From positions 2,300,544 to 2,364,543 of the forward strand of contig OY762929.1 of the NCBI GenBank assembly GCA_963666675.1: a stretch of DNA of 64,000 nucleotides, read 5' to 3'. Positions 4,425-30,792 of this stretch are shown one piece after another. Source of the DNA: an uncultured Desulfobacter sp. (GTDB lineage Bacteria > Desulfobacterota > Desulfobacteria > Desulfobacterales > Desulfobacteraceae). The notes beneath the pieces were generated by a model. That model worked only from the letters and a program-made list of their open reading frames with translations, ran no database searches and was not told where the DNA came from. The translations under genes were made by a program, and so were the position numbers. Position 1 is the stretch's first letter. Each line of letters begins with the position of its first letter.

Positions 4425-4438
4425 GGGCGCTACAGGCG

Positions 4439-4963: not shown

Positions 4964-4973
4964 CTACGCTTGT

Positions 4974-5939: not shown

Positions 5940-5942
5940 GGC

Positions 5943-6254: not shown

Positions 6255-6444
6255 AGGGACCTCCCCTCTTTTGTGTTAAAGGTATGCTTTGGTGGTTAAA
6301 ACGGTTGGTGCGGGCAAGGAGCCGGGACTGTGACGGGCTCTTCGTAAAAGGCCTTCAATGTCCGTCCCGGCTCTGTTTGTATTTTCAGGATTGACCCCTG
6401 CATTGCCCTTGCGGACCCTGCCGGGATCAAAGGTTCAGCTTATA

Positions 6445-7473
6445 TTAGATGGTGTTACGGGTTCCGTCCCATTCACCAAGTTCTTCCTCTTTGGTGTCGC
6501 CAGCGCCGTCAACAACGGCGATGAAGGCAACCTGATCAGTGGCTTCAACAGTACCCCATGCTGTGCCGGTGGCGTCATAGGTAGATTCGGCAACCTTGAA
6601 CAGGCCGATGAAACGGTTGTACTGGTCTGGATTCACATGGCGGTATACAGGCACGGAAGTCATGCCGCCAAGCTGTTCGGTGTTGAACAGGTTGGAGGAG
6701 GGGCCAAAACCAACGGCTAGAAATACGGGGGCTACTGCGCCGTCTTCGGGAGTAACAGTTGAGGAAACCGTTCCGGCAGTGGCATCAAAGGCTGCATCTT
6801 CATATTCGCCCGGGCCGAGGATACGCTCAATGGCGCCGGTCCAGTATGCAACAGTATCACCATCAGCCAATGTAATGCTCTGGCCGCAGCCATTGCCTTC
6901 TTCACCATTAAAGATATTGCCGGCAACCATGTTATTGGAACGGCTGGCTACAGTTTCCTGCAGAACGCCGCCAACGGGGGTGCAGTCAGCAGCTGTATAA
7001 CCCAAATCAGTAGCGGTAATTACACTGCCTGTGGCATCAATATAGCGAAGATCGGTCATTCCGATATCGGACATGATACCCGCAACATCGGCAATAATAG
7101 TGCCTGCTTCAACGCTGTCTTCAATACCCAGGATATCGCCGTCGGTACCGCTGCCATTGGGCAGCAATACAGCGGTGGTTGCATCATCAGCTGCTGTTAC
7201 ATAGCAAAGAGAATCAAGGTTATTGGGCAGAACGTTACGATTCAGCACACGAAAGGTTCTAACCCCTTTGTTCAACTCATCCATCATGGCAACGTGGGCT
7301 GCAGCGGAAGCACGCATATCCGTATCCTGCAGGGCGATGGTGGCGGTACCGGCAATGGCGGCCATGATGGCGACAACCACCAGGAGCTCAAGAAGGGTGA
7401 AACCTTTTTCGTTGTTGAATTTTTTGCGTTGGGCGATCAATTTTTTAAAAAATTTTTTAAATTTCATTTTCAT
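6445..7473 (-). CDS. large major pilin/pseudopilin, type IVb-like long leader (MKMKFKKFFKKLIAQRKKFNNEKG | FTLLELLVVVAIMAAIA)
   Basis: Prepilin motif G|FTLLE with a 24-aa basic leader. 342 aa. First gene of the minus-strand operon. Confidence 0.6.
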   Translation of the reverse strand: MKMKFKKFFKKLIAQRKKFNNEKGFTLLELLVVVAIMAAIAGTATIALQDTDMRASAAAHVAMMDELNKGVRTFRVLNRNVLPNNLDSLCYVTAADDATTAVLLPNGSGTDGDILGIEDSVEAGTIIADVAGIMSDIGMTDLRYIDATGSVITATDLGYTAADCTPVGGVLQETVASRSNNMVAGNIFNGEEGNGCGQSITLADGDTVAYWTGAIERILGPGEYEDAAFDATAGTVSSTVTPEDGAVAPVFLAVGFGPSSNLFNTEQLGGMTSVPVYRHVNPDQYNRFIGLFKVAESTYDATGTAWGTVEATDQVAFIAVVDGAGDTKEEELGEWDGTRNTI

Positions 7474-7699
7474 AAGATCCTTTATTTTTCATTTAAAAGT
7501 TAAGTAGCTGTTTGATCCCTTGCTGACTTTGGAAACCTCTGTTTCCCCCTTGCAGCGGATCGGACATATGGATTTAACTTTGGAACCTGTGTTGCGCCCC
7601 TCGCGCGAAGGTTCCTGGTGCGTGCAGTTCGGATCGGCCCCACGCCGTCTTCCGGCAGAAAAAAAATCCTCCTTTGGTTTTGATATGGACGGTTTATAC

Positions 7700-8014
7700 T
7701 TACGCATCGAACCCACTTTCGCATGCTTGTTTTATGTCGGTCGGCCCGGACGCCCGCCGGACAGTCTGGGCCGTATTGGCGAAATCAACCACGAAGCGGT
7801 ATTGTTTGCCGCAATAGATAATCACCTCTTTTTGCCCCCGGCGCAGGATTTTCATCTCCACACGGATATTGCCGTGGCCGTCATGGGTAAAAACTTCCTG
7901 GTAAAGTTCGGTCAGCTTTTTAATTACATCCTGATTGGTTGCTGTGCTCAATTCATTGCTCCAGATGGTGTCTATGGTTGTGTTAAGCTCGACAAAACTT
8001 ATACAGCACTTCAA
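7700..8014 (-). CDS. small protein of unknown function, paralog of 18076..18495 (shared LYQEvfTHDG...EV...CG.xYRF core). Annotated ATG start may be too far upstream.
   Basis: 104-aa ORF. Alignment to the paralog: ELYQEVFTHDGHGNIRVEMKILRRGQKEVIIYCGKQYRF vs NLYQEMITHDGYADITVNICLMKRNIKEVRLQCGREYRF. Confidence 0.4.
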   Translation of the reverse strand: MKCCISFVELNTTIDTIWSNELSTATNQDVIKKLTELYQEVFTHDGHGNIRVEMKILRRGQKEVIIYCGKQYRFVVDFANTAQTVRRASGPTDIKQACESGFDA

Positions 8015-8025
8015 AACTTATCTTC

Positions 8026-8041
8026 TGTGACTTTGATCACA
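8026..8041. promoter_or_regulatory. perfect CRP-type palindrome TGTGActttgaTCACA in divergent intergenic region (small ORF/pilin operon vs crp-family gene)
   Basis: Sequence tgtgactttgatcaca read directly. Matches the TGTGA-N6-TCACA consensus in all 10 defined positions. Confidence 0.5.
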
Positions 8042-8227
8042 TTTCTAAAAATAATTTTGGATTATATAATTTTTCACAATTTTTATCATAATGTTAGAAA
8101 TAGCTTATTTTTTTAGATGGTATTGACAAACCCATTTTCATTACTTTACTATCCGCGCTTGTTGTTACGCACAGGGCAACACCCGGGTTGTAAGATATCT
8201 CTAAATGCTTAAGGAAAGATAAATTTT

Positions 8228-9004
8228 ATGGCACAGACTGCGTTAAGAAACAGACTTATCAGTACGGCAGGCAAAAAAATCGATCTTGAACTGACCCCAC
8301 TCCTTGACGGACTGCCCCCTGATCTGCAGCAGGCCCTAATCCGCCAGGGCCGGATAAGGTCTATGAAAAAGGGGCAGCTGCTGTTTATGGCCGGAGATCC
8401 GGTGGATTCTATTTTCTTTGTCGTGTCCGGTAAGCTTAAGGAATACTTTTCTACGAAATCCGGAGATGTGTGTTTGAGAAGTATTTATTTCTCGGGCAGT
8501 TATATATCCTTACATGCTGTTTTCCTGGGCTGGAAAACCTACGCCTATACCTGCGAAGCGATTCGCCCCACCACCTGCGTGGTGTGGCCGGCCAATGCGT
8601 TTATGCAGCTTCTGCAACGGGAACCGGTTCTTGGACTCCGTGTGGCGGCCATACTGGCGGAAAAAATTGAGAATACGTGCAGGCTTCAGTGCCTGTGCCG
8701 TAAAACCCAGGCCCTGTCCCGGGTGGCGGGATTTCTTCTGCGCCACTCAGCCGCTTCTGAAAATCATCCCCGATCCTGGGATACAGGGCTGGGTTGCACC
8801 AAACGCGTCGGCAAAGCGGAATTTACCCTCTTGACCAATATCCGGCCCCTGGAATTGACTGCCAGCAACATCTGCCTGGCCCGGGAGACCTTTTCCAGGG
8901 CCTTATCCATGCTCCAGGAGCAAGGCTATATCCGCACCCGGGGCGGGATGGTTGAGATTCTTGATACTGAAGGGCTGAAACAGATTTGCGGTGCCAGTGA
9001 TTAG
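8228..9004 (+). CDS. Crp/Fnr-family transcriptional regulator (cNMP-binding domain + C-terminal HTH; no Fnr-type Cys cluster)
   Basis: 258 aa. Effector-domain motifs (GQLLFMAGDPVDSIFFVVSGKLKEY). HTH recognition helix ARETFSRAL carries the R-E-x-x-x-R pattern CRP uses to read TGTGA. Confidence 0.75.
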   Translation: MAQTALRNRLISTAGKKIDLELTPLLDGLPPDLQQALIRQGRIRSMKKGQLLFMAGDPVDSIFFVVSGKLKEYFSTKSGDVCLRSIYFSGSYISLHAVFLGWKTYAYTCEAIRPTTCVVWPANAFMQLLQREPVLGLRVAAILAEKIENTCRLQCLCRKTQALSRVAGFLLRHSAASENHPRSWDTGLGCTKRVGKAEFTLLTNIRPLELTASNICLARETFSRALSMLQEQGYIRTRGGMVEILDTEGLKQICGASD

Positions 9005-9140
9005 TGTTTGAAGAAAAAGTCACCCATCTGCGGCGTTGCTGCACAAAACTGCAATCCTCAAGTACTCAAGTACGCTCCGGTTGCAGCTTTGCTTGCGCCT
9101 TGCATATGGGTGACTTTTCCTTCAAACGCTGTTTTTTGTT

Positions 9141-10169
9141 TCAGGCCGGGACAGCGGCTGCCGCTTGCCGGCGCGCGATATTCAGCTTATCGAGCAGGCG
9201 GCCTAGGGCTTTGGGGGTGATGGACTGATGTCCGTCCACCCAGGCATTATCCGGATCATTGTGGACCTCAATTTCAAGGCCGTCGGCCCCGCATGCCATG
9301 GCGGCCAGGGACATGGGTTCAATCAGGCTGCGGCGGCCCGTGGCGTGGGACGGATCCACAACCACCGGCAAGAGGCTGCGCTGCTTAACCAGGGAAACCA
9401 CGCCCAGATCTAAAGTGTTCCGGGTGGCGGTCTCAAAGGTTTTAATTCCCCGTTCACACAGGATCACCCGGCGGTTGCCCCGGCTTAAAATATATTCGGC
9501 CCCCAGAAGCCACTCTTTCATGGCTGCGGCCATGCCGCGCTTGAGCAGCACCGGCGTGTTGCTTTTTCCCAATTCTTCGAGAAAGGCGTAATGAAACATG
9601 TTTCGGGTTCCCACCTGGAGGATGTCGGCCACTTCCGACACCTCGTCAATTTTCCCGGTACTCATCACCTCGGTGACAATTTTAAGGCCGAATTCACGTT
9701 TGATCCGGTTCAAAATTTCCAGTCCGTCCTTTTTAAGCCCCTGGAATCCGTAGGGGCTGGTCCGGGGTTTATAGGCCCCGCCCCGCATATATTTTATGCC
9801 TAATTCGCTCAGATCCTGGGCGATGGCGGCTGTCCGGTCCCAGGTCTCCACGGCACACGGGCCGGCGATGATCAGGGGGGCGCACCCGTCTCCGATGCGT
9901 TCCCCCGCCGGATCATCATCCCGGCCAAGGGCCACCCAGGGGGGGATGGCCATCAATTTTCTGCAACTTAAGGGGTAGGGCGGGACATCATCGACCACTT
10001 CCCGGACAAAATCAAGGGCCAGAAAATCCTGGCCGTGAATGCAATCATTGACCCTGACAAAGCATGTATCCGAGATTCTTTCGGCTTCCGGGCAGATTTT
10101 TTTTAAAATAGTTATTTCATGCTGCTGTTGACTAAGGTCCGGGGTAGCGGAAAGTCTTAGGATATTCAT
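9141..10169 (-). CDS. 3-deoxy-7-phosphoheptulonate (DAHP) synthase, type I-beta (KDO8PS-like) with N-terminal ferredoxin-like regulatory domain
   Basis: 342 aa. Catalytic region AGPCAVE...KPRTSPY.FQG...VDPSH..G is characteristic of Thermotoga/Bacillus-type DAHPS. About 90-aa N-terminal extension. Confidence 0.8.
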   Translation of the reverse strand: MNILRLSATPDLSQQQHEITILKKICPEAERISDTCFVRVNDCIHGQDFLALDFVREVVDDVPPYPLSCRKLMAIPPWVALGRDDDPAGERIGDGCAPLIIAGPCAVETWDRTAAIAQDLSELGIKYMRGGAYKPRTSPYGFQGLKKDGLEILNRIKREFGLKIVTEVMSTGKIDEVSEVADILQVGTRNMFHYAFLEELGKSNTPVLLKRGMAAAMKEWLLGAEYILSRGNRRVILCERGIKTFETATRNTLDLGVVSLVKQRSLLPVVVDPSHATGRRSLIEPMSLAAMACGADGLEIEVHNDPDNAWVDGHQSITPKALGRLLDKLNIARRQAAAAVPA

Positions 10170-10204
10170 TGTGCCTCCATTTCCTTTAAAAATCCGTTTT
10201 TTTG

Positions 10205-11371
10205 TTAAAAATCATTAAACTGGGGATTAGACACCGGCATTACAGCCATGCACTCCATTTCGATCAGCCATTCCGGACGGCATACCGGGGCCAGAACGAT
10301 GATCCGGGGAATATCGGGATAGTGTTCCCGGAAAAATGTATCCACCACCGTACGATCGGACACGTCCCTGAGATACACGATCAGATGACGGACATGCGCC
10401 ATGTCTGCGCCGGCTTCGGCAAGCAGGGCCTGGATATTGTCCAGGGTGCGCCGGGTCTGTTTTGCGACATTGCCCTTGTGAACCACCTGGCCGTAACGGT
10501 CGATGCTGGCGGTGCCGGAAATAAAAATATGGCGGCGGTCCCCGTAATCCACGCTGGTTCCCCGTTCAAACGTGACCCCGTATTCGTGGGTGGGATTGAG
10601 CATGTCAGGGGCCTTCAGGTGCCTGATCTGGCCAGGGTGAAGGCCTGAAATACTGTATGCATCCATTAGAACACTGGTGCCCGGGTCTGCATACCGCCCC
10701 TCAATGCCGGTGCTGGCAATGTAATGGGTCTCGGGCGTCATGCCCAGTGTTTCAAAATATTTTCGCCGGGCATCCACCACCCCCTGGTAATTGAAATCCA
10801 CATCCTTGACAAACAGCCAGGTGCGGATACAGTTCGATTGAAGGCTCATGCCGTCTTTTTCCAGAAGGGTCTGGTAGGATTTGAACACGGTATCGGTTTG
10901 TTCATAGCTGCCATGGGCCCCGTTGGTGTTCATCAATCCGGCAGTCCAGCAGTGCGCGTACCCGTTGCGGGATAACACTGTTGCATCGACGCCGTTGAAC
11001 TGTTTTTTCCCGATACCGGCATCAGAGCATTTGACCAGATAGACCCAGGCCGCAACCTTTTGTCCGGTCAGGGGCGGCTGCTGCACCACAGACAGGGCGC
11101 ATTCGGCCAGACGACCGTTAAATGTCTCCCGCACCGATGGGACCAGGTCTGTCTGGTTGGCGTAGTCACTGACAAAAAAACGTATGAATACGGGCACTGG
11201 CGCAATGCCCCAGGAAGGGGTTATAAAATCATCAAGACCATTGAGCAGTTCAGACAATTGCTGTTTGTATGGCTGCAGGGCCTGGGGGGTAATTAAAAGA
11301 TGAATTTCATCAACACCGTTGTTTGAAAATACGGAATATTCAAGTTGGGTGCTGCCATGGTGGTATTTCAT
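10205..11371 (-). CDS. two-domain protein with C-terminal (and probably internal) RidA/YjgF/chorismate-mutase-like domains
   Basis: 388 aa. C-terminal HIFISGTASIDRYGQVVHKGNVAKQTRRTLDNIQALLAEAGADMAHVRHLIVYLRD is a canonical RidA/YjgF signature. The middle segment (NCIRTWLFVKDVDFNYQGVVDARRKYF) resembles a second YjgF-like domain. Confidence 0.55.
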   Translation of the reverse strand: MKYHHGSTQLEYSVFSNNGVDEIHLLITPQALQPYKQQLSELLNGLDDFITPSWGIAPVPVFIRFFVSDYANQTDLVPSVRETFNGRLAECALSVVQQPPLTGQKVAAWVYLVKCSDAGIGKKQFNGVDATVLSRNGYAHCWTAGLMNTNGAHGSYEQTDTVFKSYQTLLEKDGMSLQSNCIRTWLFVKDVDFNYQGVVDARRKYFETLGMTPETHYIASTGIEGRYADPGTSVLMDAYSISGLHPGQIRHLKAPDMLNPTHEYGVTFERGTSVDYGDRRHIFISGTASIDRYGQVVHKGNVAKQTRRTLDNIQALLAEAGADMAHVRHLIVYLRDVSDRTVVDTFFREHYPDIPRIIVLAPVCRPEWLIEMECMAVMPVSNPQFNDF

Positions 11372-11384
11372 ACTGTCTCCTTTT

Positions 11385-11690
11385 TATATGAAAGTCTCAG
11401 TAAGCCACTGAGTTCTTTCAACCTTCGTTGTGGGCTGTCCTTCAGTGCTGATATGTCAGGTCAGCCCATGGCTGTTTATATGAAAGACTGGGTAAGTTAC
11501 TCAGGTCTTTTAAACTTTGTTTTGGGCTGAGCCTGGCAGTTGATATGTCCTGTCGGCCCATGGCCGTTATTACATCTAAATCTTATAAATAAGTAACGAC
11601 AGGTGGCTCAGGTTACTTTCATATTTTGGTTTGGGCTGACCTGGCAATAGACGTATGCCTGATCAGCCCAGGGCTGTAGTGGTATTAAAC
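11385..11690. repeat. three tandem degenerate copies (~92 bp each) of a dispersed intergenic REP/MITE-like repeat (stem ctcagtaagccactgag; core GTCAGGTCaGCCCATGGC)
   Basis: Direct reading. Units begin at about 11385, 11477 and 11575. The same unit recurs at 27570..27654, and a half-unit at 58490..58545. Confidence 0.6.
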
Positions 11691-11723
11691 CGCACAAATT
11701 ATATCTGTTACATCAACGACTAC

Positions 11724-11739
11724 CGTGACGAGCATCACA
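11724..11739. promoter_or_regulatory. near-perfect CRP-type site cGTGAcgagcaTCACA upstream of VKOR-DsbA gene
   Basis: 9/10 consensus positions. About 95 bp upstream of the ATG at 11828. Confidence 0.35.
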
Positions 11740-11827
11740 TTTTTTAAAAAATATAATGACTATATAAGAATAAAAGCTTAAAGGGCTTAATTTAGTTGGT
11801 AGTAACTTTTAATGGATATTTGAATCG

Positions 11828-13282
11828 TTGAAACAAAACGCAGTTAAAAAAAAAATTGTCGGCATCATTATTATTCTCGGGGCGGTAACCGCCATTTTGT
11901 CTACCCTGGAAACCCGGGTGGCATGGATTTCTTCATTTTGCGGTGTACTGGGAGACGGGTGCAGGGAGACCGTTCAGTACAGCATACTCAATATTGGCGT
12001 TTCGTACTGGGGTGTCGCCTTTTATGCCTTTTTAGGAATGCTTTATCTGTTTCGTCCAACCTGGCTTTTCTTTGCTGTGATGGCCGGGTGCGGCGTGGAA
12101 ACCGTAATGGTGATCCTGTTGATTCAGATGAAACTTGTATGCATTTTGTGTCTTATGAACCTGGCCTGGATGCTGCTGCTTCTATACTGTTTTTTTGATT
12201 TTAAACGATTTTCCCAGATGCTTTGTGTCTGGCTTGTTTTTTATGTGTCCGGCGGCGGCATGGTCAGGCCGCCGGACACCGGGCATGACCCCGGCGGATC
12301 CTGTCATGAATCACCACAAATCATGGCCCGGGTGGGCGGTACCGACATCACACGGCAGCAGGTGGAACAACCCCTGACCACCAAGCTGTACAAGATGCAG
12401 AGTGACATCTACAGGGTCAAACATACGGCGTTGGAAAACCGGATTAACCAGGTGCTGCTTGAAAAAGATGCCCGGGAAAAGGGAATTTCAGTCCAGGCAC
12501 TCAAAGACCGGCTGGTGGCTGAATTGCCGGCCGTGAAGGCGGCTGCTGTTGATTTTTATTTTAAAACCGGGATCTACAAACGCTGGGGAAGTTGGCGGGG
12601 AAGCGAAGCTGAAACCCGGGAAAAGATAAGGCTGTACCTGAGGTTAAGTGCCGAAGAAGAGAAGATTTTGGCCCATTGCCAAACGTTAAGACAGCGATAT
12701 CCTGTCACCGTTTTTCTAGAAAAACCGTCCCTGCCCATGACCCGGGTCTCCATTGACGGATGCCCGTCAACCGGACCTGATCATGCAACGGTCATTGTGG
12801 TGGAGGTGTCAGACTACCTGTGCCCCATGTGCCGTAAGGGGCATGATACACTGGAACGAGTCCGCCAGGCCTACAAGGAAAAAATTAAATGGGTGTTTAA
12901 GGCGAATCCATTGGAGAGCATTCACCCCGGGGCAACCGATGTGGCCCTGGCCGGACGGTGTGCCGGAGAACAGGGCAAATTCTGGGAATTTCACCAGATG
13001 CTTTTCAGCGGTAAAAAGCCTGGCGTAGATGATGCCAGGAAGTATGCAAAACAACTTGGGCTTGATATGGGCACATTCGACGCATGCCTGGCCGATGCCA
13101 ACAAAAAAGAGCAGTTTGGCAATGATAGAGAAAAGCTTCGCAAGGCAGGTGTCACCTCAACGCCGACACTGATCATTAACGGTAAAGTCCAGGTGGGCGT
13201 TCCTTCCTATGAGGCCCTTTGCCAAATGATTGATCAGGCGTTAAATGAAAGCGCAAAGACAACAGGTGGGATACCGCAATAA
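11828..13282 (+). CDS. VKOR (vitamin K epoxide reductase-like) membrane domain fused to periplasmic DsbA-like thioredoxin-fold domain (disulfide bond formation)
   Basis: N-terminal multi-TM region with paired cysteines (CGVLGDGC loop; CILCLM CxxC in a TM helix). C-terminal thioredoxin-like domain with a CPMC active-site motif (VSDYLCPMCRKGHD). Confidence 0.65.
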   Translation: MKQNAVKKKIVGIIIILGAVTAILSTLETRVAWISSFCGVLGDGCRETVQYSILNIGVSYWGVAFYAFLGMLYLFRPTWLFFAVMAGCGVETVMVILLIQMKLVCILCLMNLAWMLLLLYCFFDFKRFSQMLCVWLVFYVSGGGMVRPPDTGHDPGGSCHESPQIMARVGGTDITRQQVEQPLTTKLYKMQSDIYRVKHTALENRINQVLLEKDAREKGISVQALKDRLVAELPAVKAAAVDFYFKTGIYKRWGSWRGSEAETREKIRLYLRLSAEEEKILAHCQTLRQRYPVTVFLEKPSLPMTRVSIDGCPSTGPDHATVIVVEVSDYLCPMCRKGHDTLERVRQAYKEKIKWVFKANPLESIHPGATDVALAGRCAGEQGKFWEFHQMLFSGKKPGVDDARKYAKQLGLDMGTFDACLADANKKEQFGNDREKLRKAGVTSTPTLIINGKVQVGVPSYEALCQMIDQALNESAKTTGGIPQ

Positions 13283-13295
13283 AAAAAGTCTTGTG

Positions 13296-13868
13296 TTATT
13301 CGGCCAGCGGGAGTACCCGGGTGATCTTCATCCGGGTGACCCGGACGCCTTTGGTCTTCTGCTCTTTGGGGGTGGCGGGTTTCAACTGGGACAGGATCAG
13401 GCGCTCTCCAAATTCCCGGCATAATGTCCCGCCTGCTCCAGGCTGCGGTCTGCAGCGCTTTGCGTACACGGTTATAAAAGCCTGGCCGGTCCGGTCAATG
13501 TTTTGACGGGTCTGGTTATGGGCCAGGGCAAACCGGATAATGTTCTCGGATTCCAGAATGGGGTAAATCAGGGTGGCGTGGGGAGATCCATCGGGGTTGA
13601 CGGTTCCCACTACAGCCCCGGTAATATGTTTGCTCAGCCAATTGGCGAGGGTGGCGGAATCAACCGTAACGGTCTTATTATAGCCCAGTTCCGTGGCGCC
13701 GCTGACGGCATCCACTTCATCTGCGGCATAGACCTGGCCGGGTATGGCCATAATGAAAACGCCGGCACATAGACCGGCTGCGACCAGCAGTGGTTTGAGT
13801 ACCAGCACAAATTTGCGTATCAGTATAGATTTGAGTAATTGATAAGAAAGCTTCCAGCGGGCAACCAT
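13296..13868 (-). CDS. hypothetical exported protein
   Basis: 190-aa ORF with hydrophobic signal-like N-terminus (LVAAGLCAGVFIMAIPGQVYAADE). No confident motif. Confidence 0.35.
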   Translation of the reverse strand: MVARWKLSYQLLKSILIRKFVLVLKPLLVAAGLCAGVFIMAIPGQVYAADEVDAVSGATELGYNKTVTVDSATLANWLSKHITGAVVGTVNPDGSPHATLIYPILESENIIRFALAHNQTRQNIDRTGQAFITVYAKRCRPQPGAGGTLCREFGERLILSQLKPATPKEQKTKGVRVTRMKITRVLPLAE

Positions 13869-14013
13869 ATTTTTTTTAACTTTGTTTTGGACCCAAGCCT
13901 GGATGCAAGCACGATAGATATAGCCCGGGCCTGGTGGTTTTTAAAATTTGGATACATCGGGAGGAATGAGGAACAACACCCCGGACACGTCCGGGGTGTT
14001 GTTGTTTTGTTTA

Positions 14014-15525
14014 TCAAATGGCCCTCAGGAATTTGATCACAGCCTCACGGTCCTTTTTAGACAGCTTGCGGAACGCTTCGCGGGACTCTTCACCTTCCCC
14101 GAAGTGCCAGAGAATGGCACCCTCGAAGTCACGTGCCCGCTGGTCATGCCACATGTCGGTATGGTCGGCCACGGTGTGGATCATCTGGCGGGCCCACAGG
14201 GGCATGGTCCTGAATGTTTTGCGAAATCCATGGTTCATCTCACCCATATCGTGCATCAGCAGATCGGTATAGGGCCATATTTTCTGGTTGGCATAGGCCG
14301 GGATATACGGGGATTTTGTGCCGGTGGTCCAGCTGGGCTTATGGCATTCGTTGCAGCCGATTTCATAAAATTTTTGTTTGCCGCGCTGTACCATGGGGTC
14401 ATTGAGATTTCTGGCTGCGGGGACGCCTAACCCACGCATCCATATCATGAGACTGTCCCGGTCCTCGTCAGACACCTCCACGGGCTGGTGGGCGGAGAGC
14501 AGTGCGGTATCAAAGCCGAGTTCCCCTTGTTTATCGATCCACTCCTGGGTGGCGAACAGGGCGGGTTTATCCGTACGGGTCAGGTTGGCCACACTCCAGG
14601 CCCCATTGAATCCGGGTCCGTTCTGCAGGGTAGCGCGGGTGCAGTGTGTGGTGAATTTACCCAGATGTTTTTCCCCGTCATGGGGTTCGACAATCCAGCG
14701 GCCGTGCTGGCCTTTAATGGGGCCCGGCAGTGCCTGCTGGCGGTTATATTCTTCAATGATATCCTCATCCGGAATCACATCAAGCAGCCCTGCGCCGAAA
14801 ATACCGATGGTGCCCTCAAGATCGGCCCTTGTTCCTTCGGGCAGGGGGAAAAGCGACCCCACCACCTCGGTGACCGGATAGATCAGTGTGCCCTCGTAAG
14901 GCTTGCCTTCATTATACGGGGTGCCATCGGGGTATTTATTGCCGTATTGGTCCGTGTAATTTTTCCAGCTGATTTTTATATCCTGGGCCGGGGGCTGGTA
15001 CGGCGGGGTGGCCATGGTCTGGGCCATGAATTTGAACCCATTGATCAGTTTGCCGTCCTTGTGGATCAGCACCAGGTAACCGTTGCCCCACTGCTCGGTC
15101 TTGAACTTGCTGACCCGGCGGGCCCGTGCATAATTGGGATGGCAGTTCTGGCAGGAGGAGTTATTGTACACCGGTCCAAGGCCGCCGAAGGGCGCGTCCG
15201 GATCAGTGACAAAATCGGCTTCAAAGATCGACTCGCCGGCACCAAACTTTTCAGACAGTTCCGGATCTGCGTTAATGGCCGGAGACGGCATTTCAAGACA
15301 TCGGGTGGTGGTGACAAATACCGTCCCCATCCTGCCGCCGGTATAATATTCTTCGGAAACATCGGGGGGATCTCCGCCCACAGCAATATGGGCCCACGCC
15401 CCGGAGGTCAATACGCATATAAAAATACCCGCCGAGCCGAGAAGGCCAAGCCCCCAAAGCATAGTTTTAATCTTTTTTTTATGCACTTTTTTAGAAAAAC
15501 CCTCGTTGTTTATATTCATTTTCAT
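14014..15525 (-). CDS. di-haem cytochrome c, DUF1111/thiol-oxidoreductase-like (start placed at MKMNINNEG...; the longer ORF overlaps the upstream gene)
   Basis: Two CxxCH haem-binding motifs (CQNCH, CNECH) and a signal peptide. Conserved partner of imelysin genes. Confidence 0.6.
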   Translation of the reverse strand: MKMNINNEGFSKKVHKKKIKTMLWGLGLLGSAGIFICVLTSGAWAHIAVGGDPPDVSEEYYTGGRMGTVFVTTTRCLEMPSPAINADPELSEKFGAGESIFEADFVTDPDAPFGGLGPVYNNSSCQNCHPNYARARRVSKFKTEQWGNGYLVLIHKDGKLINGFKFMAQTMATPPYQPPAQDIKISWKNYTDQYGNKYPDGTPYNEGKPYEGTLIYPVTEVVGSLFPLPEGTRADLEGTIGIFGAGLLDVIPDEDIIEEYNRQQALPGPIKGQHGRWIVEPHDGEKHLGKFTTHCTRATLQNGPGFNGAWSVANLTRTDKPALFATQEWIDKQGELGFDTALLSAHQPVEVSDEDRDSLMIWMRGLGVPAARNLNDPMVQRGKQKFYEIGCNECHKPSWTTGTKSPYIPAYANQKIWPYTDLLMHDMGEMNHGFRKTFRTMPLWARQMIHTVADHTDMWHDQRARDFEGAILWHFGEGEESREAFRKLSKKDREAVIKFLRAI

Positions 15526-15571
15526 ATTGTCTTTCCCTGTTATCTGTGAGGAAGTTGGCTGCGGCACAGGT

Positions 15572-16759
15572 TTATTTGTCCACGTATTTAAGATCACTGC
15601 CGTAACATGCAAAGGGCTCAAGGGCCGGATCGATGGCAACCAGTGCCGTAGCAGCAGTCAGTGTTGTTGCAAGCCTGTCTAACTGTTTTATAGCAAGTTT
15701 TATGGTTTGTTTTCTATTTTTCGGTGCTGCCTTTTTTATGGCATCTATGCGCTGGGAAAGGTAAATGATGTTGGTGCGGATATGGTCGGCCAGCACCTTG
15801 TCCTTTCCCGCCACAAGATCATAAAAGCAAGGCTTGGCAGATTCACCGGTGATGCTGCAAGCATAGGCATTGTCAATGCCTTTGAGCATGCCTTGAAGAT
15901 CCTGGCAGGGATCAATGCTTTCCCAATAATTTAAATCCCCTTGTTTTCGATCAATCAGATCTTCTTCAAAAATGGCCAGCATATCCTCAATAACGCTGGA
16001 GTCTTCCTGAAACTGCTCCTGAATGGGAATGGAGATGCTAAAGTAACGGCTCTTTTCAAGGCCCGGGTGGTTGACCTCCCAGGCAAAGGAGCTGCGAAAG
16101 GGTCTCTGGGCGTCGGAGAGCATTTTGCGCTGGTCGGCGGGCATATTATCCGTGCCCACCCAGCTGGCCAGAAAATCCAGTCCGCTTAATTTCATCTCTG
16201 CGGCGATGGCTGATAAATAGGCCAGTTGGGTATCGCTTAAATCATCAGGGCTGCGCGGGATTCCCCGGTTAAAGAGCAGGTACTGGGCCGCATAAAGCCC
16301 CCGGGTTGAGGCCGGCTGATCGCGCAGCGCCTGGGCTGTTGCCTGTTTTTTGCCCTGGTTTATCTCTTCTATGGCATGTTCTAACAAAATTTTATCCACA
16401 GGCCATATGGCCAGTTGTTTGTGAAAGGCAAACAACGCCGCAGGGCCATACATAAATATCTGGGACTGCATATAATCGTCCCGGATGGCTTTCCAGTCCG
16501 CCACGACGTTATCGAACGCCGCCTGGCTCCTGCTTTTATCAAGTTCTCTGGCGGATGTTTCAAAATTATATATATGGCCGCACATCTTTTGAATCGTTTC
16601 GATAACCACCTGGTCTACATAACTTGCCAATGCGTCTTGTGCCTTTTTTTTGAATAGATAGTTATCCAGTTGTGTCTTGTAATTGCCCTTGAAAAATGCA
16701 AGGCCTGAAACGGTCAGCAACACTAGACACATGCCGCCTGCAATAATGATTTTCTTCAT
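15572..16759 (-). CDS. imelysin (peptidase M75)-like lipoprotein/iron-regulated protein
   Basis: 395 aa, signal peptide. Sequence type and the imelysin-DUF1111-imelysin gene order are characteristic. Confidence 0.5.
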   Translation of the reverse strand: MKKIIIAGGMCLVLLTVSGLAFFKGNYKTQLDNYLFKKKAQDALASYVDQVVIETIQKMCGHIYNFETSARELDKSRSQAAFDNVVADWKAIRDDYMQSQIFMYGPAALFAFHKQLAIWPVDKILLEHAIEEINQGKKQATAQALRDQPASTRGLYAAQYLLFNRGIPRSPDDLSDTQLAYLSAIAAEMKLSGLDFLASWVGTDNMPADQRKMLSDAQRPFRSSFAWEVNHPGLEKSRYFSISIPIQEQFQEDSSVIEDMLAIFEEDLIDRKQGDLNYWESIDPCQDLQGMLKGIDNAYACSITGESAKPCFYDLVAGKDKVLADHIRTNIIYLSQRIDAIKKAAPKNRKQTIKLAIKQLDRLATTLTAATALVAIDPALEPFACYGSDLKYVDK

Positions 16760-16840
16760 AGTTTCTCCTGATTGTCTCTACTGTTCTCCGGGGGCATCCT
16801 TAAAAACGGCCGGGTAGGGGGTATTATGAATTCTTAATCC

Positions 16841-17923
16841 CTATTGCCTGAGCATTTGGGCCTCAAGGCCTTTTTTCACATCAAGCTCAAGTGTCATGGC
16901 CGCTTCGGCAATCATATCTTCCAGCTTGGACATATCCTTATAAACTCCCTTCAGGGCAGATGGCTTTTTCTTAATAACGGTATAAAGGGGCTCTTTTTTG
17001 TTTTTGAGCTTTTCAAGGTTTTTATCCAGCCGCTGGATCTGTTTTCGGATATCCTTGGCAAGGCCCGGATCTTTTTCATGGGCAATGCCGTCCCGGGTGG
17101 CCAGAAGGTTTAAAAGGCCATGGGTGCCATCGCCAATCATCACCGAAGCGACGCCTTGGGCTATGGCCTGTAACCCTTCAAGTGAGGTTTTGCTGTATGG
17201 GGCGTCAAGCAGGTCGGGCCGGGCCGGGCCATTGTTGAAATTGGTTGGGAAACCAATGCGCTCTCGAACGGTATCCTCTATGATGTTCATTGTCTGGGCC
17301 ACAACCTGGCTTAATGCCTCGTTGGGATTCAGGTAGGGTTGGCCATTGCCTGCATTGAGAAATGCCTCCCGATAATCCTGGTCCCATTGGGTTTTGGCCC
17401 GGGTCAGGCGGGCTGTGATTTCAGCCGTGATATCGGTCAGATGCAGGCAGCGCTCATTGGCGACCGCTTCCTGGCTGTCCTGGCTGGCAAAAAGAAGATA
17501 CTCCACAGCCGTGTATCCACGGACATCGTTGCCTTGGCGCATTCCGGCAAATTCGTTAGAAGCCACCACGGCCTCAAGTACGGTGGCATTGCATGGTTTA
17601 CCGATACGATCAGCCATATGGCCGGCTGGTCCGATCAGGTATGGCAGCGTTTTATTCCATGCCACCCAGGCATTTTTCCATGACGCTCTGGCCGCAGTCA
17701 GGCTTTGATCTGAGTGCTCACTGCACAAGTGTTTTACAGCCGCTTCAAGGGCCTGGGCTGTTGTAATTGCATCATTCCAGTGACTGTCAATGCCCTGGAT
17801 GGTCATGTTTTCAAGAACCTGGCTGTCACTGGTTTCGGCCAATGCCGCCGGTGCAATGGTGAGAAAGGTGCTAAATGCCATCAGACCGACAGCGGCCATG
17901 GCAATACGAAGTTTAGGTTTCAT
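16841..17923 (-). CDS. imelysin-like (IrpA-like) periplasmic protein
   Basis: 360 aa, signal peptide (AALAETSD). Paralogous organisation with the 15572..16759 gene. Confidence 0.5.
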   Translation of the reverse strand: MKPKLRIAMAAVGLMAFSTFLTIAPAALAETSDSQVLENMTIQGIDSHWNDAITTAQALEAAVKHLCSEHSDQSLTAARASWKNAWVAWNKTLPYLIGPAGHMADRIGKPCNATVLEAVVASNEFAGMRQGNDVRGYTAVEYLLFASQDSQEAVANERCLHLTDITAEITARLTRAKTQWDQDYREAFLNAGNGQPYLNPNEALSQVVAQTMNIIEDTVRERIGFPTNFNNGPARPDLLDAPYSKTSLEGLQAIAQGVASVMIGDGTHGLLNLLATRDGIAHEKDPGLAKDIRKQIQRLDKNLEKLKNKKEPLYTVIKKKPSALKGVYKDMSKLEDMIAEAAMTLELDVKKGLEAQMLRQ

Positions 17924-18023
17924 AATCCCCCTTTGGTTTCAATATTTTTTGATAGAGCTAACTTCTTTTGGGTTGTCTTTCTTCAAAGCGATTTGAATAT
18001 AAAAGGAAACAACCCCGCTTTTC

Positions 18024-18039
18024 TGTGATCAGCGTCACA
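18024..18039. promoter_or_regulatory. perfect CRP-type palindrome TGTGAtcagcgTCACA about 100 bp upstream of imelysin operon start
   Basis: Sequence tgtgatcagcgtcaca read directly. Confidence 0.5.
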
Positions 18040-18075
18040 GTCAGCTAAAATATTGAATAGTGGTGTCACCCTGTG

Positions 18076-18495
18076 TTAACCGGTTCCTTTATCATCCCGG
18101 CGGCGGCCTTTGCCGGTTCTCCTGTCCACAAGGGTCCTGCGTTCCAGTTTAAAGTTCCTGGGAACATACCCTTTGCGCCTTGGGTTGGTATAGTCTCTTC
18201 GGTCTTTACCGCCGCGACGCTCGGGTTGGCCGCTGATCTCTTCCCAGGCGCTGCCTGTGGCCGTATCAATGATTCGGTAGCGATCCTGCGCCCACGCCTT
18301 TTCAGGGCATGGAATATAAAACCGGTATTCCCTGCCACATTGCAGGCGAACCTCCTTGATATTTCTTTTCATCAGACAGATATTCACAGTTATATCTGCA
18401 TATCCGTCATGGGTTATCATTTCCTGGTACAGGTTGATAAATTTGTTTAAAAAAGCCAGATTGGGGTCTGTTCTGTTTTCGGTGTGCTCAGTCAT
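18076..18495 (-). CDS. small protein of unknown function with Arg-rich C-terminal tail; paralog of 7700..8014
   Basis: 139 aa. Conserved LYQEMITHDGY...EVRLQCGREYRF core. C-terminal RRGGKDRRDYTNPRRKGYVPRNFKLERRTLVDRRTGKGRRRDDKG is highly basic. Confidence 0.4.
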   Translation of the reverse strand: MTEHTENRTDPNLAFLNKFINLYQEMITHDGYADITVNICLMKRNIKEVRLQCGREYRFYIPCPEKAWAQDRYRIIDTATGSAWEEISGQPERRGGKDRRDYTNPRRKGYVPRNFKLERRTLVDRRTGKGRRRDDKGTG

Positions 18496-18602
18496 TGTTA
18501 AATGCCGGTTTATAAACGTTAATGGTTTAAAAAAGTTTGCTGTACAATTTTTTTTGTTATTTATTAAAATTTTTTAAGGTTAACTTATTTTGAACTATTT
18601 TT

Positions 18603-18618
18603 TGTGATTCAAATCACA
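18603..18618. promoter_or_regulatory. perfect CRP-type palindrome TGTGAttcaaaTCACA upstream of small paralog gene
   Basis: Sequence tgtgattcaaatcaca read directly. Centre about 115 bp upstream of the ATG at 18495 (minus). Confidence 0.5.
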
Positions 18619-18651: not shown

Positions 18652-19053
18652 GTGAATTGGGAAGATCAGCACACCAAAAGGAAGACCAAATACGTAATGC
18701 AAAATTTACACTGGATTATTTTACTGGTTATGATCGCCTTGACCAGCATTGGGGCATACAGACATCCTGAAACGTTCAGAAAGAAAATAGCATTTCCTTT
18801 ACTTGCATTTCTGGGTTTGGGGATTTTATTTATTTCCGTTTATAATATTGGGGGAATGGGAGCTCATGTTCACAGTCTTGTCAAAGAGGTTGCAAAAACC
18901 CAGGCTGAAACGGCTGTGATTAAATTCTACGCCTTAAGAATAGAGCAGCGCTATGCCCTTCAAGTCAAATCCATTTTGGTGGCCGGAGGGTTGGCTGTTT
19001 ATCTGACAGTTCTTATATTTCTGTTCAAAATTTTTCCAGCCAAAGGAAAATAA
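18652..19053 (+). CDS. small integral membrane protein (3-4 TM)
   Basis: 133 aa with several hydrophobic helices. Followed by a strong terminator. Confidence 0.35.
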   Translation: MNWEDQHTKRKTKYVMQNLHWIILLVMIALTSIGAYRHPETFRKKIAFPLLAFLGLGILFISVYNIGGMGAHVHSLVKEVAKTQAETAVIKFYALRIEQRYALQVKSILVAGGLAVYLTVLIFLFKIFPAKGK

Positions 19054-29046: not shown

Positions 29047-29196
29047 GTGTCCTTTCGGCAAGCCTGTGTAAATCAAAAAAATTAAGATAACATTCAAAAC
29101 AGACCCGATCCAAAAAAACAGTGTGTAAGGCGATGAGGGATAGTTTGCAGTGCAAAAATGTGTCTCAAAACATACTGGATTGGCTAAAAGGTCGTT

Positions 29197-30759: not shown

Positions 30760-30792
30760 GAAATGTGTGCTATCACATTTAAACTCTAATGT

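What the first reader, a model, noticed from the sequence alone, without database searches (positions are those of the whole stretch)
8026..18618. Cluster of perfect CRP-type palindromes suggests a local Crp-family regulon linking pilus, imelysin and small-protein genes
Three perfect TGTGA-N6-TCACA palindromes (8026..8041, 18024..18039, 18603..18618) and one 9/10 match (11724..11739) lie in intergenic regions within 10.6 kb. A specific 10-of-16 palindrome is expected about 0.06 times per 64 kb by chance. The adjacent regulator (8228..9004) carries the R-E-x-x-x-R recognition-helix residues (ARETFSRAL) that CRP uses to read TGTGA. The site positions are upstream of the pilus operon/small ORF, the VKOR-DsbA gene, the imelysin-DUF1111 operon and the second small ORF. 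This is compatible with class I/II activation.
Basis: partly seen in the sequence, partly recalled or inferred. Interest (0 to 1): 0.7.

Follow-up and report, generated by a model that had tools for sequence, protein, structure and literature searches.

The report
Conserved Crp/Fnr regulon in Desulfobacterota
The four TGTGA-N6-TCACA palindromes are real and very probably the operator sites of the neighbouring Crp/Fnr-type activator, forming a gene circuit conserved across sulfate-reducing relatives that switches on a pilus-like machine, a tiny very highly conserved protein and iron-uptake-type genes; in other bacteria, Fur-box-like sequences sit in front of the small-protein and pilus-like genes instead.

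Summary
Observation confirmed. There are three perfect TGTGA-N6-TCACA sites (0.07 expected) plus CGTGA-N6-TCACA at 11724. All are intergenic and lie within 10.6 kb of the only Crp/Fnr gene in the window.

A weight matrix trained only on sites from other genomes ranks these four first (24.5-19.0 bits; next 12.8).

In 15 loci holding orthologues of the regulator (38-61% identity), most keep the layout: pilus-like operon, small gene, then the divergent regulator. Sites recur before the small gene, the imelysin-imelysin-DHOR operon, the DsbA-like gene and a chorismatase-like/DAHP-synthase operon.

30 of 41 target-facing sites are followed, after 19-23 nt (mostly 20), by a -10-like hexamer. That puts the site centre near -41, a class II activation geometry.

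The regulator keeps CRP's R-E-x-x-x-R recognition residues but lacks the cAMP contacts. It carries a conserved Cys triad (SCRxxCLCRK) at the interdomain hinge.

The small protein plus pilin-like pair occurs across phyla. Loci from other phyla have no nearby regulator orthologue and almost no such sites (one Acidobacteriota MAG is the exception). Many carry Fur-box-like sequences there instead (37% versus 1% of shuffles), which suggests an iron-linked module.

This is a new member of a known kind of system. The signal it senses is inferred only.

The parts
8026..8041 (.). Operator site 1, TGTGACTTTGATCACA, between the small gene (minus strand) and the regulator gene (plus strand).
   Evidence: PWM 24.5. 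An orthologous site sits in the same intergenic region in L001-L007, L009, L010, L012, L013, L015, L018 and L036.
7998..8003 (-). -10-like hexamer TATAAG, 22 nt downstream of site 1 on the minus strand. Predicted class II promoter of the small gene and pilus-like operon.
   Evidence: The same layout, site + 20-22 nt + TATAGT/TATAAT, is seen in the orthologous loci. No transcription-start data.
7700..7951 (-). Small protein 1: 83 aa from TTG 7951, with a GGAG ribosome-binding site 7 nt upstream. It has a roughly 60-aa, very highly conserved core (…LYxEVFxHDGYGDIRVEMRILRRGQKEVIIHCGKQYRFVVDF).
7529..7656 (-). Conserved structured element in the spacer between the small gene and the pilin-like gene. 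Two hairpins show compensatory changes.
   Evidence: Covariance model R1 finds it at the same position in non-training loci from Geobacteraceae and Chromatiales/Sedimenticolaceae. No Rfam family.
453..7473 (-). Pilus-like (type IV filament) operon, cut by the window start. Genes: 6445..7473 N_methyl protein (342 aa), 5943..6254 (103 aa), 4974..5939 N_methyl (321 aa), 4439..4963, 3021..4424 N_methyl (467 aa), 1085..3031, 453..1088.
   Evidence: In the orthologous loci the operon continues with two T2SSE ATPases (one with an MshEN domain) and T2SSF.
8123..8152 (+). Sigma-70-like promoter candidate TTGACA-18-TACTAT for the regulator gene, about 100 bp downstream of site 1.
   Evidence: This is a consensus match only; 3 were found against 2.0 expected. 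Similar TTGAC(T/A)A motifs occur in L003 and L004.
8228..9004 (+). Crp/Fnr-family regulator, 258 aa. Recognition helix ARETFSRAL (218-226). Cys triad C151/C155/C157 (SCRxxCLCRK motif). C82 in the beta4/5 flap.
9141..10169 (-). DAHP synthase (DAHP_synth_1), second gene of the operon that faces site 2.
   Evidence: A DAHP synthase of either class is linked to sites in L001, L003 and L091.
10205..11371 (-). Chorismatase-like protein, 388 aa, with a RidA/YjgF-fold C-terminal domain.
   Evidence: Pfam Ribonuc_L-PSP. NCBIfam FkbO/Hyg5 chorismatase match over most of the profile but below cut-off. PDB 5ag3/5a3k match over residues 157-375, E 5e-8.
11372..11695 (-). Long predicted leader of the chorismatase-like/DAHP-synthase operon, with about three tandem ~92-nt units, each holding GGGCUG…CAGCCC hairpins.
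   Evidence: families D1/D2. Folding z-score -5.5. No Rfam match. Function unknown.
11698..11703 (-). -10 hexamer TATAAT, 20 nt after site 2 on the minus strand.
11724..11739 (.). Operator site 2, CGTGACGAGCATCACA (9 of 10), shared by divergent promoters.
   Evidence: PWM 19.0. C at position 1 is seen in 10 of 62 training half-sites. Orthologous sites precede the DsbA-like gene in L003 (12368) and the RR-HK-chorismatase-like operon in L001 and L003.
11761..11768 (+). -10-like TATATAAG, 21-23 nt after site 2 on the plus strand. Predicted promoter of the DsbA-like gene.
11828..13282 (+). Membrane-anchored DsbA-like oxidoreductase. The N-terminal ~130 aa has hydrophobic segments (read by eye as about 4 TM helices, not tested), a CX6C loop pair and a CXXC motif (VKOR-like). 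The C-terminal part matches Thioredoxin_4/DSBA.
   Evidence: Pfam VKOR scores only E 0.12, 13 bits against a cut-off of 27.5, though over positions 5-132 of 134 in the profile.
13296..17923 (-). Imelysin operon: imelysin 16841..17923, imelysin 15572..16759, di-haem DHOR (DUF1111) 14014..15639, and a weakly PNPOx-like gene 13296..13868.
   Evidence: The same imelysin-imelysin-DHOR operon, preceded by a site, occurs in L005, L007, L009, L010, L012, L013 and L015.
17996..18001 (-). -10-like hexamer TATATT, 22 nt after site 3 on the minus strand.
18024..18039 (.). Operator site 3, TGTGATCAGCGTCACA, about 100 bp upstream of the first imelysin gene.
   Evidence: PWM 24.1.
18076..18495 (-). Small protein 2: 139 aa, a paralogue of small protein 1 with an Arg-rich tail.
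   Evidence: 39% identity over 59 aa, E 8e-15. Paralogues not followed by a pilin gene also carry sites upstream in L029, L034, L036 and L044.
18603..18618 (.). Operator site 4, TGTGATTCAAATCACA, between small gene 2 (minus strand) and a membrane-protein gene (plus strand).
   Evidence: PWM 24.1. The target strand is ambiguous: TAAATT at 21 nt on the plus strand, and only TAACCT at 20 nt on the minus strand.
18652..19053 (+). Small membrane protein with a weak DUF998-like match. The ATG at 18698 is the likelier start. Possible target of site 4.

Best explanation
The four palindromes are operator sites of the adjacent Crp/Fnr-family regulator (8228..9004).

The dimer reads TGTGA half-sites through R219, E220 and R224, the equivalents of CRP R180, E181 and R185. 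It binds about 41 bp upstream of the transcription start of promoters that have a -10 element but no -35 element. From there it activates transcription in the class II manner.

Predicted targets in this genome are:
(i) small protein 1 and the downstream pilus-like (type IV filament) operon;
(ii) the imelysin-imelysin-DHOR operon;
(iii) the VKOR-like/DsbA-like gene and, divergently, the chorismatase-like/DAHP-synthase operon;
(iv) small protein 2 and/or the neighbouring membrane-protein gene.

The circuit is inherited. It is found in Desulfobacterales and Desulfobulbales, and in the Geobacter lineage with a more distant regulator.

The regulator does not bind cAMP. Its likely sensor is a conserved Cys triad at the hinge between the dimerisation helix and the DNA-binding domain.

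The same small-protein and pilus-like genes are preceded by Fur-box-like sequences in Proteobacteria, and imelysin-DHOR operons are Fur-regulated in Pseudomonas and Vibrio. The signal is therefore most likely related to iron, Fe-S status or redox state.

Shown by sequence: the sites, their conservation, their co-occurrence with the regulator, and the spacing to -10-like hexamers.
Inferred: binding by this particular protein, activation rather than repression, and the nature of the signal.
For: - Sites are real and non-random.
- An independent PWM, trained without the window, picks exactly these four.
- There is only one Crp/Fnr gene in the window.
- The recognition helix is invariant in 20 orthologues and aligns with the CRP DNA-contact residues.
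- Prior work links Arg180 to the G of TGTGA-type boxes in delta-proteobacterial HcpR (PMC545781).
- Synteny is conserved, with sites before the same genes in more than 15 loci.
- Sites co-occur with the regulator: 6.1 versus 1.0 perfect sites per 100 kb, Fisher p 7e-6. The exceptions lie almost entirely in Desulfobacterota or in one Acidobacteriota MAG.
- A -10-like hexamer lies 19-23 nt after the site in 30 of 41 target-facing cases, against 6.4% background.
- cAMP contacts are lost, and the Cys triad maps to the CRP hinge residues 132-137.
- Fur-box-like 19-mers lie upstream of the small gene in 29 of 79 loci, against 1% of dinucleotide shuffles.
- The iron-related context includes hemP, a TonB-dependent receptor, FeoAB and Peripla_BP_2.
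- Imelysin-DUF1111 operons are Fur-regulated in Pseudomonas and Vibrio (PMC3143127).
Against: - There are no binding, transcription-start or expression data.
- Only 64 kb of a 6.5-Mb genome could be scanned, so other sites and other Crp/Fnr paralogues with the same helix may exist.
- L008 holds an orthologue with the same helix but no site within 10 kb.
- L011/L091 and L044 have sites but no regulator within 10 kb.
- The -10 assignment for small gene 2 is weak.
- The window's own small-gene-1 promoter has TATAAG, which lacks the final T.
- C82 is not universal: it is Tyr in three orthologues. The first Cys of the triad is Tyr in one orthologue.
- The iron link rests on gene context and on Fur-like boxes in other phyla, not in this organism.
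Confidence: 0.8

Rival explanations
1. The sites are real operators, but they are read by a different Crp/Fnr paralogue encoded elsewhere in the genome, for example an HcpR-like or global regulator with the same R-E-x-x-x-R helix. On this view the adjacent regulator is only a neighbour, or one of the targets.
For: Desulfovibrio HcpR uses a very similar TTGTGA-N6-TCACAA box (PMC545781). L011/L091 and L044 have sites without a regulator gene within 10 kb. L008 has the regulator without sites.
Against: The regulator gene lies divergently next to a site-bearing small gene in L001-L007, L009, L010, L012, L013 and L018. Sites are rare where the regulator is absent. No hcp (Prismane) gene appears in any of the ten annotated loci. 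The recognition helix is invariant while the rest of the protein diverges to 39% identity.
Confidence: 0.1
2. The regulator represses rather than activates, or acts in both ways. The sites would then overlap promoters that I have misplaced.
For: Crp/Fnr proteins can repress; HcpR was predicted to repress sat and apsAB. No transcription-start data exist. Some sites lack a -10-like hexamer at the expected distance (11 of 41). Several loci have two or three sites in tandem (L003, L012, L029).
Against: The spacing of exactly 20 nt between the site and a TATAGT-like hexamer recurs across distant genomes, with no -35 element. This is the signature of class II dependence, not of promoter occlusion.
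Confidence: 0.08
3. It is a classical cAMP-CRP catabolite-type regulon.
For: The box is the CRP consensus, and the protein has a cNMP_binding domain.
Against: The CRP residues E72, R82 and S83 that hold cAMP are L, Y and A here. The NCBIfam CRP equivalog scores 28 bits against a cut-off of 266. The nearest solved relatives are DNR and FNR, which sense through haem or Fe-S. The targets are not catabolic genes.
Confidence: 0.02
4. The palindromes are chance or non-regulatory sequence.
For: Short palindromes do occur by chance. One 1-mismatch match (20303) is indeed inside a gene.
Against: Three were observed against 0.07 expected. All lie in intergenic DNA. They are conserved at orthologous positions in many genomes and sit at a fixed distance from -10-like hexamers.
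Confidence: 0.01

Closest known systems
Escherichia coli CRP (cAMP receptor protein) at class II promoters
   Same: Same 16-bp box, TGTGA-N6-TCACA. Same DNA-contact residues, R180/E181/R185 equivalent to R219/E220/R224. Same two-domain architecture. The site centre lies about 41 bp upstream of the start, inferred from -10 spacing.
   Different: There is no cAMP pocket: E72, R82 and S83 are replaced. The match to the CRP equivalog model is far below its cut-off. The targets are not catabolic. A Cys triad and a 4-residue insertion sit at the hinge.
FNR (E. coli / Aliivibrio fischeri, PDB 5e44) and DNR (Pseudomonas aeruginosa, PDB 3dkw)
   Same: These are the nearest solved relatives by profile search (E 1e-17 to 9e-19). 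They are class II activators that sense through a cofactor (Fe-S or haem) rather than a cyclic nucleotide. This last point is from established knowledge.
   Different: The N-terminal Cys cluster of FNR is absent: the first Cys is at residue 82. The box is the CRP type (TGTGA), not the FNR type (TTGAT), in line with Arg instead of Val before the conserved Glu. The conserved cysteines lie at the C-terminal end of the dimerisation helix and the hinge.
HcpR of Desulfovibrio (predicted regulon, Rodionov et al. 2004, PMC545781)
   Same: A Crp/Fnr regulator of the former delta-proteobacteria with Arg at the CRP-180 position and a TTGTGA-N6-TCACAA box. It was inferred by the same comparative-genomics logic.
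   Different: HcpR is defined by its link to hcp-frdX and to sulfate or nitrogen-oxide respiration genes. Here there is no hcp within 10 kb in ten loci. The targets are pilus-like, imelysin/DHOR, DsbA-like and chorismatase-like/DAHP-synthase genes.
Fur-regulated imelysin-DUF1111-imelysin operon (PA4370-PA4373 of P. aeruginosa; VC1264-1266)
   Same: Same operon content, two imelysin-like proteins plus a di-haem DUF1111/DHOR protein, implicated in iron uptake (PMC3143127).
   Different: There it is repressed by Fur at Fur boxes. Here there is no Fur-like box (6-9 mismatches) but a Crp/Fnr box in an activating position.

Membership tests
Crp/Fnr superfamily of transcription factors | N-terminal cNMP-binding-type beta-roll domain followed by a dimerisation helix and a C-terminal Crp-type helix-turn-helix | tested here: met
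   Pfam cNMP_binding 55 bits (cut-off 27.5) and HTH_Crp_2 42 bits (cut-off 27). Profile matches to DNR, FNR, CRP, NtcA and FixK2 structures.
Crp/Fnr superfamily of transcription factors | Binds a twofold-symmetric site with 5-bp half-sites, often near its own gene | tested here: inconclusive
   The palindromes are present, conserved, and co-occur with the gene. Physical binding is not testable with these tools.
CRP proper (cAMP-activated global regulator) | cAMP-contact residues E72, R82, S83 (and T127/S128) | tested here: not met
   hhalign against E. coli CRP gives E72->L95, R82->Y105, S83->A106.
CRP proper (cAMP-activated global regulator) | Scores above the NCBIfam equivalog cut-off (PRK11753) | tested here: not met
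   28.1 bits against a cut-off of 266.
CRP proper (cAMP-activated global regulator) | Recognition-helix residues R180, E181, R185 that read TGTGA | tested here: met
   R219, E220 and R224 align with them. They are invariant in 20 orthologues.
FNR (oxygen-sensing [4Fe-4S] regulator) | N-terminal Cys cluster (C20, C23, C29) plus C122 | tested here: not met
   No Cys before residue 82. NCBIfam PRK11161 scores 50.5 bits against a cut-off of 228.
FNR (oxygen-sensing [4Fe-4S] regulator) | TTGAT-N4-ATCAA box read by an E-x-x-S-R helix without Arg at the CRP-180 position | tested here: not met
   The box has G at the third position in all 31 training sites and all 4 window sites. Arg is present before the Glu.
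HcpR regulon | Regulator co-localised with hcp (hybrid-cluster protein), and a site upstream of hcp | tested here: not met
   No Prismane-family gene in the Pfam-annotated gene tables of L001-L010. Window ORFs between 453 and 22128 show none. The rest of the genome was not examined.
Class II Crp/Fnr-dependent promoter | Site centred near -41.5, overlapping the -35 position, with a recognisable -10 and no -35 hexamer | tested here: met
   A -10-like hexamer starts 19-23 nt (mode 20) after the 16-mer in 30 of 41 target-facing sites, against 6.4% background. Window sites: 22 nt (TATAAG), 20 nt (TATAAT), 22 nt (TATATT). Transcription starts are not measured.
   CX6C (C38, C45) and CILC (C104-C107) are present in a hydrophobic N-terminus. 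PF07884 scores only 13 bits, E 0.12, against a cut-off of 27.5, although it covers positions 5-132 of 134 in the profile. The DsbA/Thioredoxin_4 part is clearly met.
FkbO/Hyg5 chorismatase (for 10205..11371) | Scores above the NCBIfam TIGR04444 cut-off, with the two-domain YjgF-like fold | tested here: inconclusive
   45 bits against a cut-off of 325, but aligned over positions 81-310 of 311. PDB 5ag3/5a3k match over residues 157-375, E 5e-8. That these entries are Hyg5-type chorismatases is from memory.

The most novel reading that the evidence does not exclude
The regulator is an iron/Fe-S or thiol-redox sensor whose sensing cysteines (SCRxxCLCRK) sit in the interdomain hinge. I know of no characterised Crp/Fnr protein with its sensor there. 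In Desulfobacterota it has taken over from Fur as the switch of an iron-starvation module. The core of that module is a roughly 60-aa very highly conserved protein, an atypical type IV filament machine with three large pseudopilins, and a conserved leader RNA. On this reading the module is a widespread and so far uncharacterised iron-acquisition or extracellular-iron-handling device. It is coupled to imelysin/di-haem peroxidase and to a chorismate-derived hydroxybenzoate.
Probability: 0.25. Interest if true: 0.75.

Novelty: new member of a known kind. Interest (0 to 1): 0.55.

Why it matters
- It assigns a DNA motif, a mode of action and a conserved target set to a Crp/Fnr subfamily that matches no curated NCBIfam model above its cut-off. 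I found no paper describing this subfamily.
- It connects four groups of poorly understood genes into one co-regulated unit. These are a very highly conserved 60-aa protein found in many phyla, an atypical pilus-like machine, imelysin/DHOR, and a chorismatase-like/DAHP-synthase pair.
- In other phyla, Fur-like boxes sit where the Crp/Fnr boxes sit here. This yields a testable hypothesis: the whole unit is an iron-limitation response, and its regulator was swapped during evolution.
- Cultured organisms carry the module, so the predictions can be tested directly. Desulfobulbus elongatus DSM 2908 has the Crp/Fnr version. Neptunomonas japonica and Rhodocyclus tenuis carry the small gene and pilin-like gene with Fur-box-like sequences upstream (4 and 5 mismatches).

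Tried and rejected
- The 1-mismatch match at 20303 was rejected as a site. It lies inside a coding gene and is not recovered by the independent PWM.
- Rfam gave nothing credible, at gathering threshold over the whole window or at a relaxed threshold over 7400-8250 and 11300-11850. This applies both to the small-gene/pilin spacer and to the tandem-repeat leader.
- A blastn search of the tandem-repeat leader against plasmids found no match.
I did not model the regulator because coordinates are not returned.
- Autoregulation of the regulator from site 1: the window has TATATAAT 21-23 nt away on the regulator side. Orthologues have only A-tracts there, so I do not claim it.
- feoAB in L010 as a target: its apparent promoter lies about 330 bp from the site, so I do not claim it.
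- Two ORFs between the small gene and the regulator in L005 and L006 are not homologues of the small protein, and I treat them as spurious.
- Literature searches found no description of this regulator, the small protein or an iron-regulated pilus of this type.

Full report
**1. The observation**

An exact search finds TGTGA-N6-TCACA three times in the 64-kb window, at 8026, 18024 and 18603. Dinucleotide-preserving shuffles give a mean of 0.07, and none of 100 reaches three.

With one mismatch two more appear: 11724 (CGTGA…TCACA) and 20303 (TGTGG…TTCACA). The first four lie between genes. 20303 lies inside an ABC_trans_aux gene.

The ORF 8228..9004 has a cNMP_binding domain and a Crp-type HTH domain. 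It carries ARETFSRAL, is the only Crp/Fnr gene in the window, and is 100% identical to a protein of an uncultured Desulfobacter sp. on a 6.48-Mb contig. The description is therefore correct.

**2. Are the sites more than a local coincidence?**

I fetched loci that encode homologues of the regulator (39-61% identity) from metagenomes and MAGs of Desulfobacter, Desulfobulbus and relatives. All but one (L008) share the same arrangement:
- a pilus-like operon with three N_methyl proteins, two T2SSE ATPases (one with MshEN) and T2SSF;
- a small gene of roughly 65-100 aa in front of it;
- the regulator gene placed divergently.

Four loci also have an imelysin-imelysin-DHOR operon a few kb away. One has the DsbA-like gene. 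Two have a response-regulator/kinase/RidA-like/DAHP-synthase operon.

A scan of these loci finds sites with 0-1 mismatches:
- in the small-gene/regulator intergenic region of all but L008;
- upstream of every imelysin operon, usually the perfect 16-bp palindrome TGTGACCATGGTCACA;
- upstream of the DsbA-like gene in L003;
- upstream of the RR-HK-RidA-like operon in L001 and L003.

A weight matrix built from 31 such sites, none from the window, scores the four window sites 24.5, 24.1, 24.1 and 19.0 bits. The next best hit is 12.8, and 20303 is not recovered.

**3. A natural control**

The small protein proved to be a large, unnamed family: 2308 hits, no Pfam or NCBIfam family, and a 60-aa core that is 55-80% identical across phyla.

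Eighty loci fetched through it come from Desulfobacterota, Acidobacteriota, Alpha-, Beta- and Gammaproteobacteria, Bacillota, Omnitrophota and others. In most loci that extend far enough, the small gene is followed by a homologue of the 342-aa N_methyl protein.

Orthologues of the regulator occur only in the Desulfobacterota loci.
- Perfect sites number 18 in 294 kb where the regulator is present.
- They number 12 in 1148 kb where it is absent.
- Eleven of those 12 lie in Desulfobacterota loci or in one Acidobacteriota MAG.
- Comparing loci with at least one perfect site gives Fisher p 7e-6.

In the Geobacter lineage, a more distant Crp/Fnr gene (22-24% identity) that keeps an R-E-T-L-S-R helix lies within a few kb of a cluster of chorismatase-like, imelysin, small-gene and pilin-like genes. 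Sites lie in the same neighbourhood, and in Geobacter itself (L014, L016) directly upstream of the chorismatase-like gene.

**4. Promoter geometry**

Reading from each site towards its target gene, the 16-mer is followed by 20 nt (sometimes 21-22) and then TATAGT, TATAAT, TATATT or a similar hexamer. No -35 hexamer is present.

With a strict rule (A at position 2, T at position 6, at least 4 of 6 matches, starting 19-23 nt after the site), 30 of 41 non-redundant target-facing sites qualify. The background at random positions is 6.4%.

In the window the layout is:

| Site | Strand | Spacing | Hexamer | Target |
|---|---|---|---|---|
| 8026 | minus | 22 nt | TATAAG | small gene 1 |
| 11724 | minus | 20 nt | TATAAT | chorismatase-like/DAHP-synthase operon |
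| 11724 | plus | 21-23 nt | TATATAAG | DsbA-like gene |
| 18024 | minus | 22 nt | TATATT | imelysin operon |
| 18603 | plus | 21 nt | TAAATT | membrane-protein gene |
| 18603 | minus | 20 nt | TAACCT (poor) | small gene 2 |

This puts the site centres at about -40.5 to -42.5, the class II activation position of CRP and FNR (established knowledge).

The regulator gene has its own TTGACA-18-TACTAT candidate promoter at 8123-8152. The regulator-facing side of the site is not conserved in orthologues, so I do not claim autoregulation.

**5. The regulator**

A profile of 20 orthologues is closest to DNR (3dkw, E 9e-19) and FNR (5e44, about 1e-17) among solved structures. CRP comes in at about 1e-6. 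No NCBIfam model is reached.

Alignment with E. coli CRP gives the following:
- R219/E220/R224 correspond to R180/E181/R185.
- The cAMP contacts E72, R82 and S83 are L95, Y105 and A106.
- C151, C155 and C157 fall on CRP residues 132-137, the hinge between the long helix and the DNA-binding domain, together with a 4-residue insertion.
- C82 falls in the beta4/5 flap.

'CLARETFSRAL' and 'CLCRK' are invariant in the 20-sequence alignment. In the wider set the R-E-x-F-S-R core and the 'CLCRK' motif are kept, but the residues before the Arg vary. The first Cys of the triad is Tyr in one sequence. C82 is Tyr in three further orthologues.

The link between Arg at the CRP-180 position and a G at the third base of the half-site was already noted for HcpR of Desulfovibrio (PMC545781). 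The protein is therefore a cofactor- or thiol-sensing relative of FNR and DNR with CRP-type DNA specificity. It is not a cAMP receptor.

**6. What the regulon may be for**

- The imelysin-DUF1111-imelysin operon is Fur-regulated and implicated in iron uptake in Pseudomonas and Vibrio (PMC3143127).
- Genes next to the module in other loci include feoAB, Peripla_BP_2, hemerythrin, AhpC, hemP, a TonB-dependent receptor and a 2OG-Fe oxygenase.
- The 388-aa RidA-domain protein resembles Hyg5/FkbO chorismatases over most of its length.
- That protein is always paired with a DAHP synthase, of class I here and in the Acidobacteriota locus and of class II in L001 and L003. This points to a dedicated chorismate-derived product.

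I then tested the 300 nt upstream of the small gene in all 79 usable loci for similarity to the Fur box GATAATGATAATCATTATC. 29 have at most 5 mismatches and 12 have at most 4. Dinucleotide shuffles of the same regions give 1.0% and 0.04%.

The best matches are mostly in Beta- and Gammaproteobacteria, including cultured Neptunomonas japonica, with one in a Bacillota MAG. The window's own promoter regions have no such box (6-9 mismatches).

My inference is that the small-protein/pilus-like unit is an iron-limitation response repressed by Fur in Proteobacteria. In Desulfobacterota the same unit, together with imelysin/DHOR, DsbA-like and chorismatase-like genes, has been placed under a Crp/Fnr activator, and the hinge cysteines of that activator are the obvious candidate sensor. 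This last step is inference only.

**7. Comparison with what is known, and novelty**

The system works like CRP or FNR at class II promoters. It fails the membership tests for CRP proper, FNR and HcpR, as listed in the membership table.

I found no paper that describes this regulator subfamily, the small protein, or an iron-linked pilus of this kind. I rate it a new member of a known kind. The hinge Cys triad and the apparent Fur-to-Crp/Fnr swap are the parts that could make it more than that.

**8. Side observations**

- The spacer between the small gene and the pilin-like gene contains a conserved two-hairpin element with compensatory changes. A covariance model recovers it in Geobacteraceae and Chromatiales loci that were not used for training.
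- The predicted leader of the chorismatase-like operon consists of about three tandem ~92-nt units and folds unusually stably, z-score -5.5.
- An IS66-family element is present in two 99.9% identical copies.

**9. Limits**

All evidence is computational. Only 64 kb of the source genome and 10-kb flanks elsewhere could be examined. Transcription starts, binding and the signal are all untested.

Noticed in passing
window 7700-7951 (-) and 18076-18495 (-); loci L011-L092: The small ORFs belong to a large unnamed protein family: 2308 hits, no Pfam or NCBIfam family, all annotated 'hypothetical'. The ~60-aa core is 55-80% identical from Desulfobacterota to Gammaproteobacteria, Acidobacteriota, Bacillota and Omnitrophota. 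It usually lies directly upstream of a ~340-aa prepilin-type protein. The AF2 model shows a helix plus three strands, with no convincing fold match.
   Followed up: partly
300 nt upstream of the small gene in L011-L090 (e.g. L060, L061, L068, L056/L064, L083, L079): Fur-box-like 19-mers with at most 5 mismatches precede the small gene in 29 of 79 loci, mostly Proteobacteria, against 1% of dinucleotide shuffles. This suggests the small-protein/pilus-like operon is iron-repressed outside Desulfobacterota.
   Followed up: partly
window 7529-7656 (-); same position in L012-L016, L018, L019, L022, L063: A conserved structured element lies in the spacer between the small gene and the pilin-like gene. 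It has two hairpins with compensatory base changes plus a conserved CGUGnGGGUCG stretch. It is not in Rfam. A covariance model finds it in non-training loci from Geobacteraceae and Chromatiales.
   Followed up: partly
window 11372-11695 (-): The ~320-nt predicted leader of the chorismatase-like/DAHP-synthase operon is made of about three tandem ~92-nt units, each with a GGGCUG…CAGCCC hairpin and a second hairpin. It folds far more stably than shuffles (z -5.5). No Rfam or plasmid match.
   Followed up: partly
window 9141-11371 (-); L001, L003, L091: A chorismatase-like RidA-fold protein is paired with a DAHP synthase that is class I in some genomes and class II in others (non-orthologous replacement). 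The pair is always tied to the Crp/Fnr sites, which points to a dedicated chorismate-derived product.
   Followed up: partly
window 8228-9004, residues 151-160: The conserved motif SCRxxCLCRK, with a 4-residue insertion relative to CRP, sits at the interdomain hinge of the regulator. I am not aware of a characterised Crp/Fnr sensor located there.
   Followed up: partly
window 18076-18495 (-), C-terminal half; P0122: Small protein 2 and a Thiobacillaceae homologue carry an Arg/Asp-rich tail with repeated DRR/RRxD motifs. The pilus-linked copies lack this tail.
   Followed up: no
window 29047-31644 and 36653-39250: Two direct copies (99.9% identical, 2.6 kb, 7606 bp apart) of an IS66-family element with a 520-aa transposase.
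   Followed up: partly
window 48130-49480 and 44854-45111: Three tandem 525-nt repeats (75-95% identical), plus a related copy 3.5 kb upstream. This is probably a repeated protein domain.
   Followed up: no
L005, L007, L009, L010, L012, L013, L015, L018: 10-25 nt downstream of the -10-like hexamer: A short conserved motif TTAGC…CTAA (a potential 4-bp hairpin) follows the predicted start of both the small-gene and the imelysin transcripts in Desulfobulbales. It is weak or absent in the Desulfobacter window.
   Followed up: no
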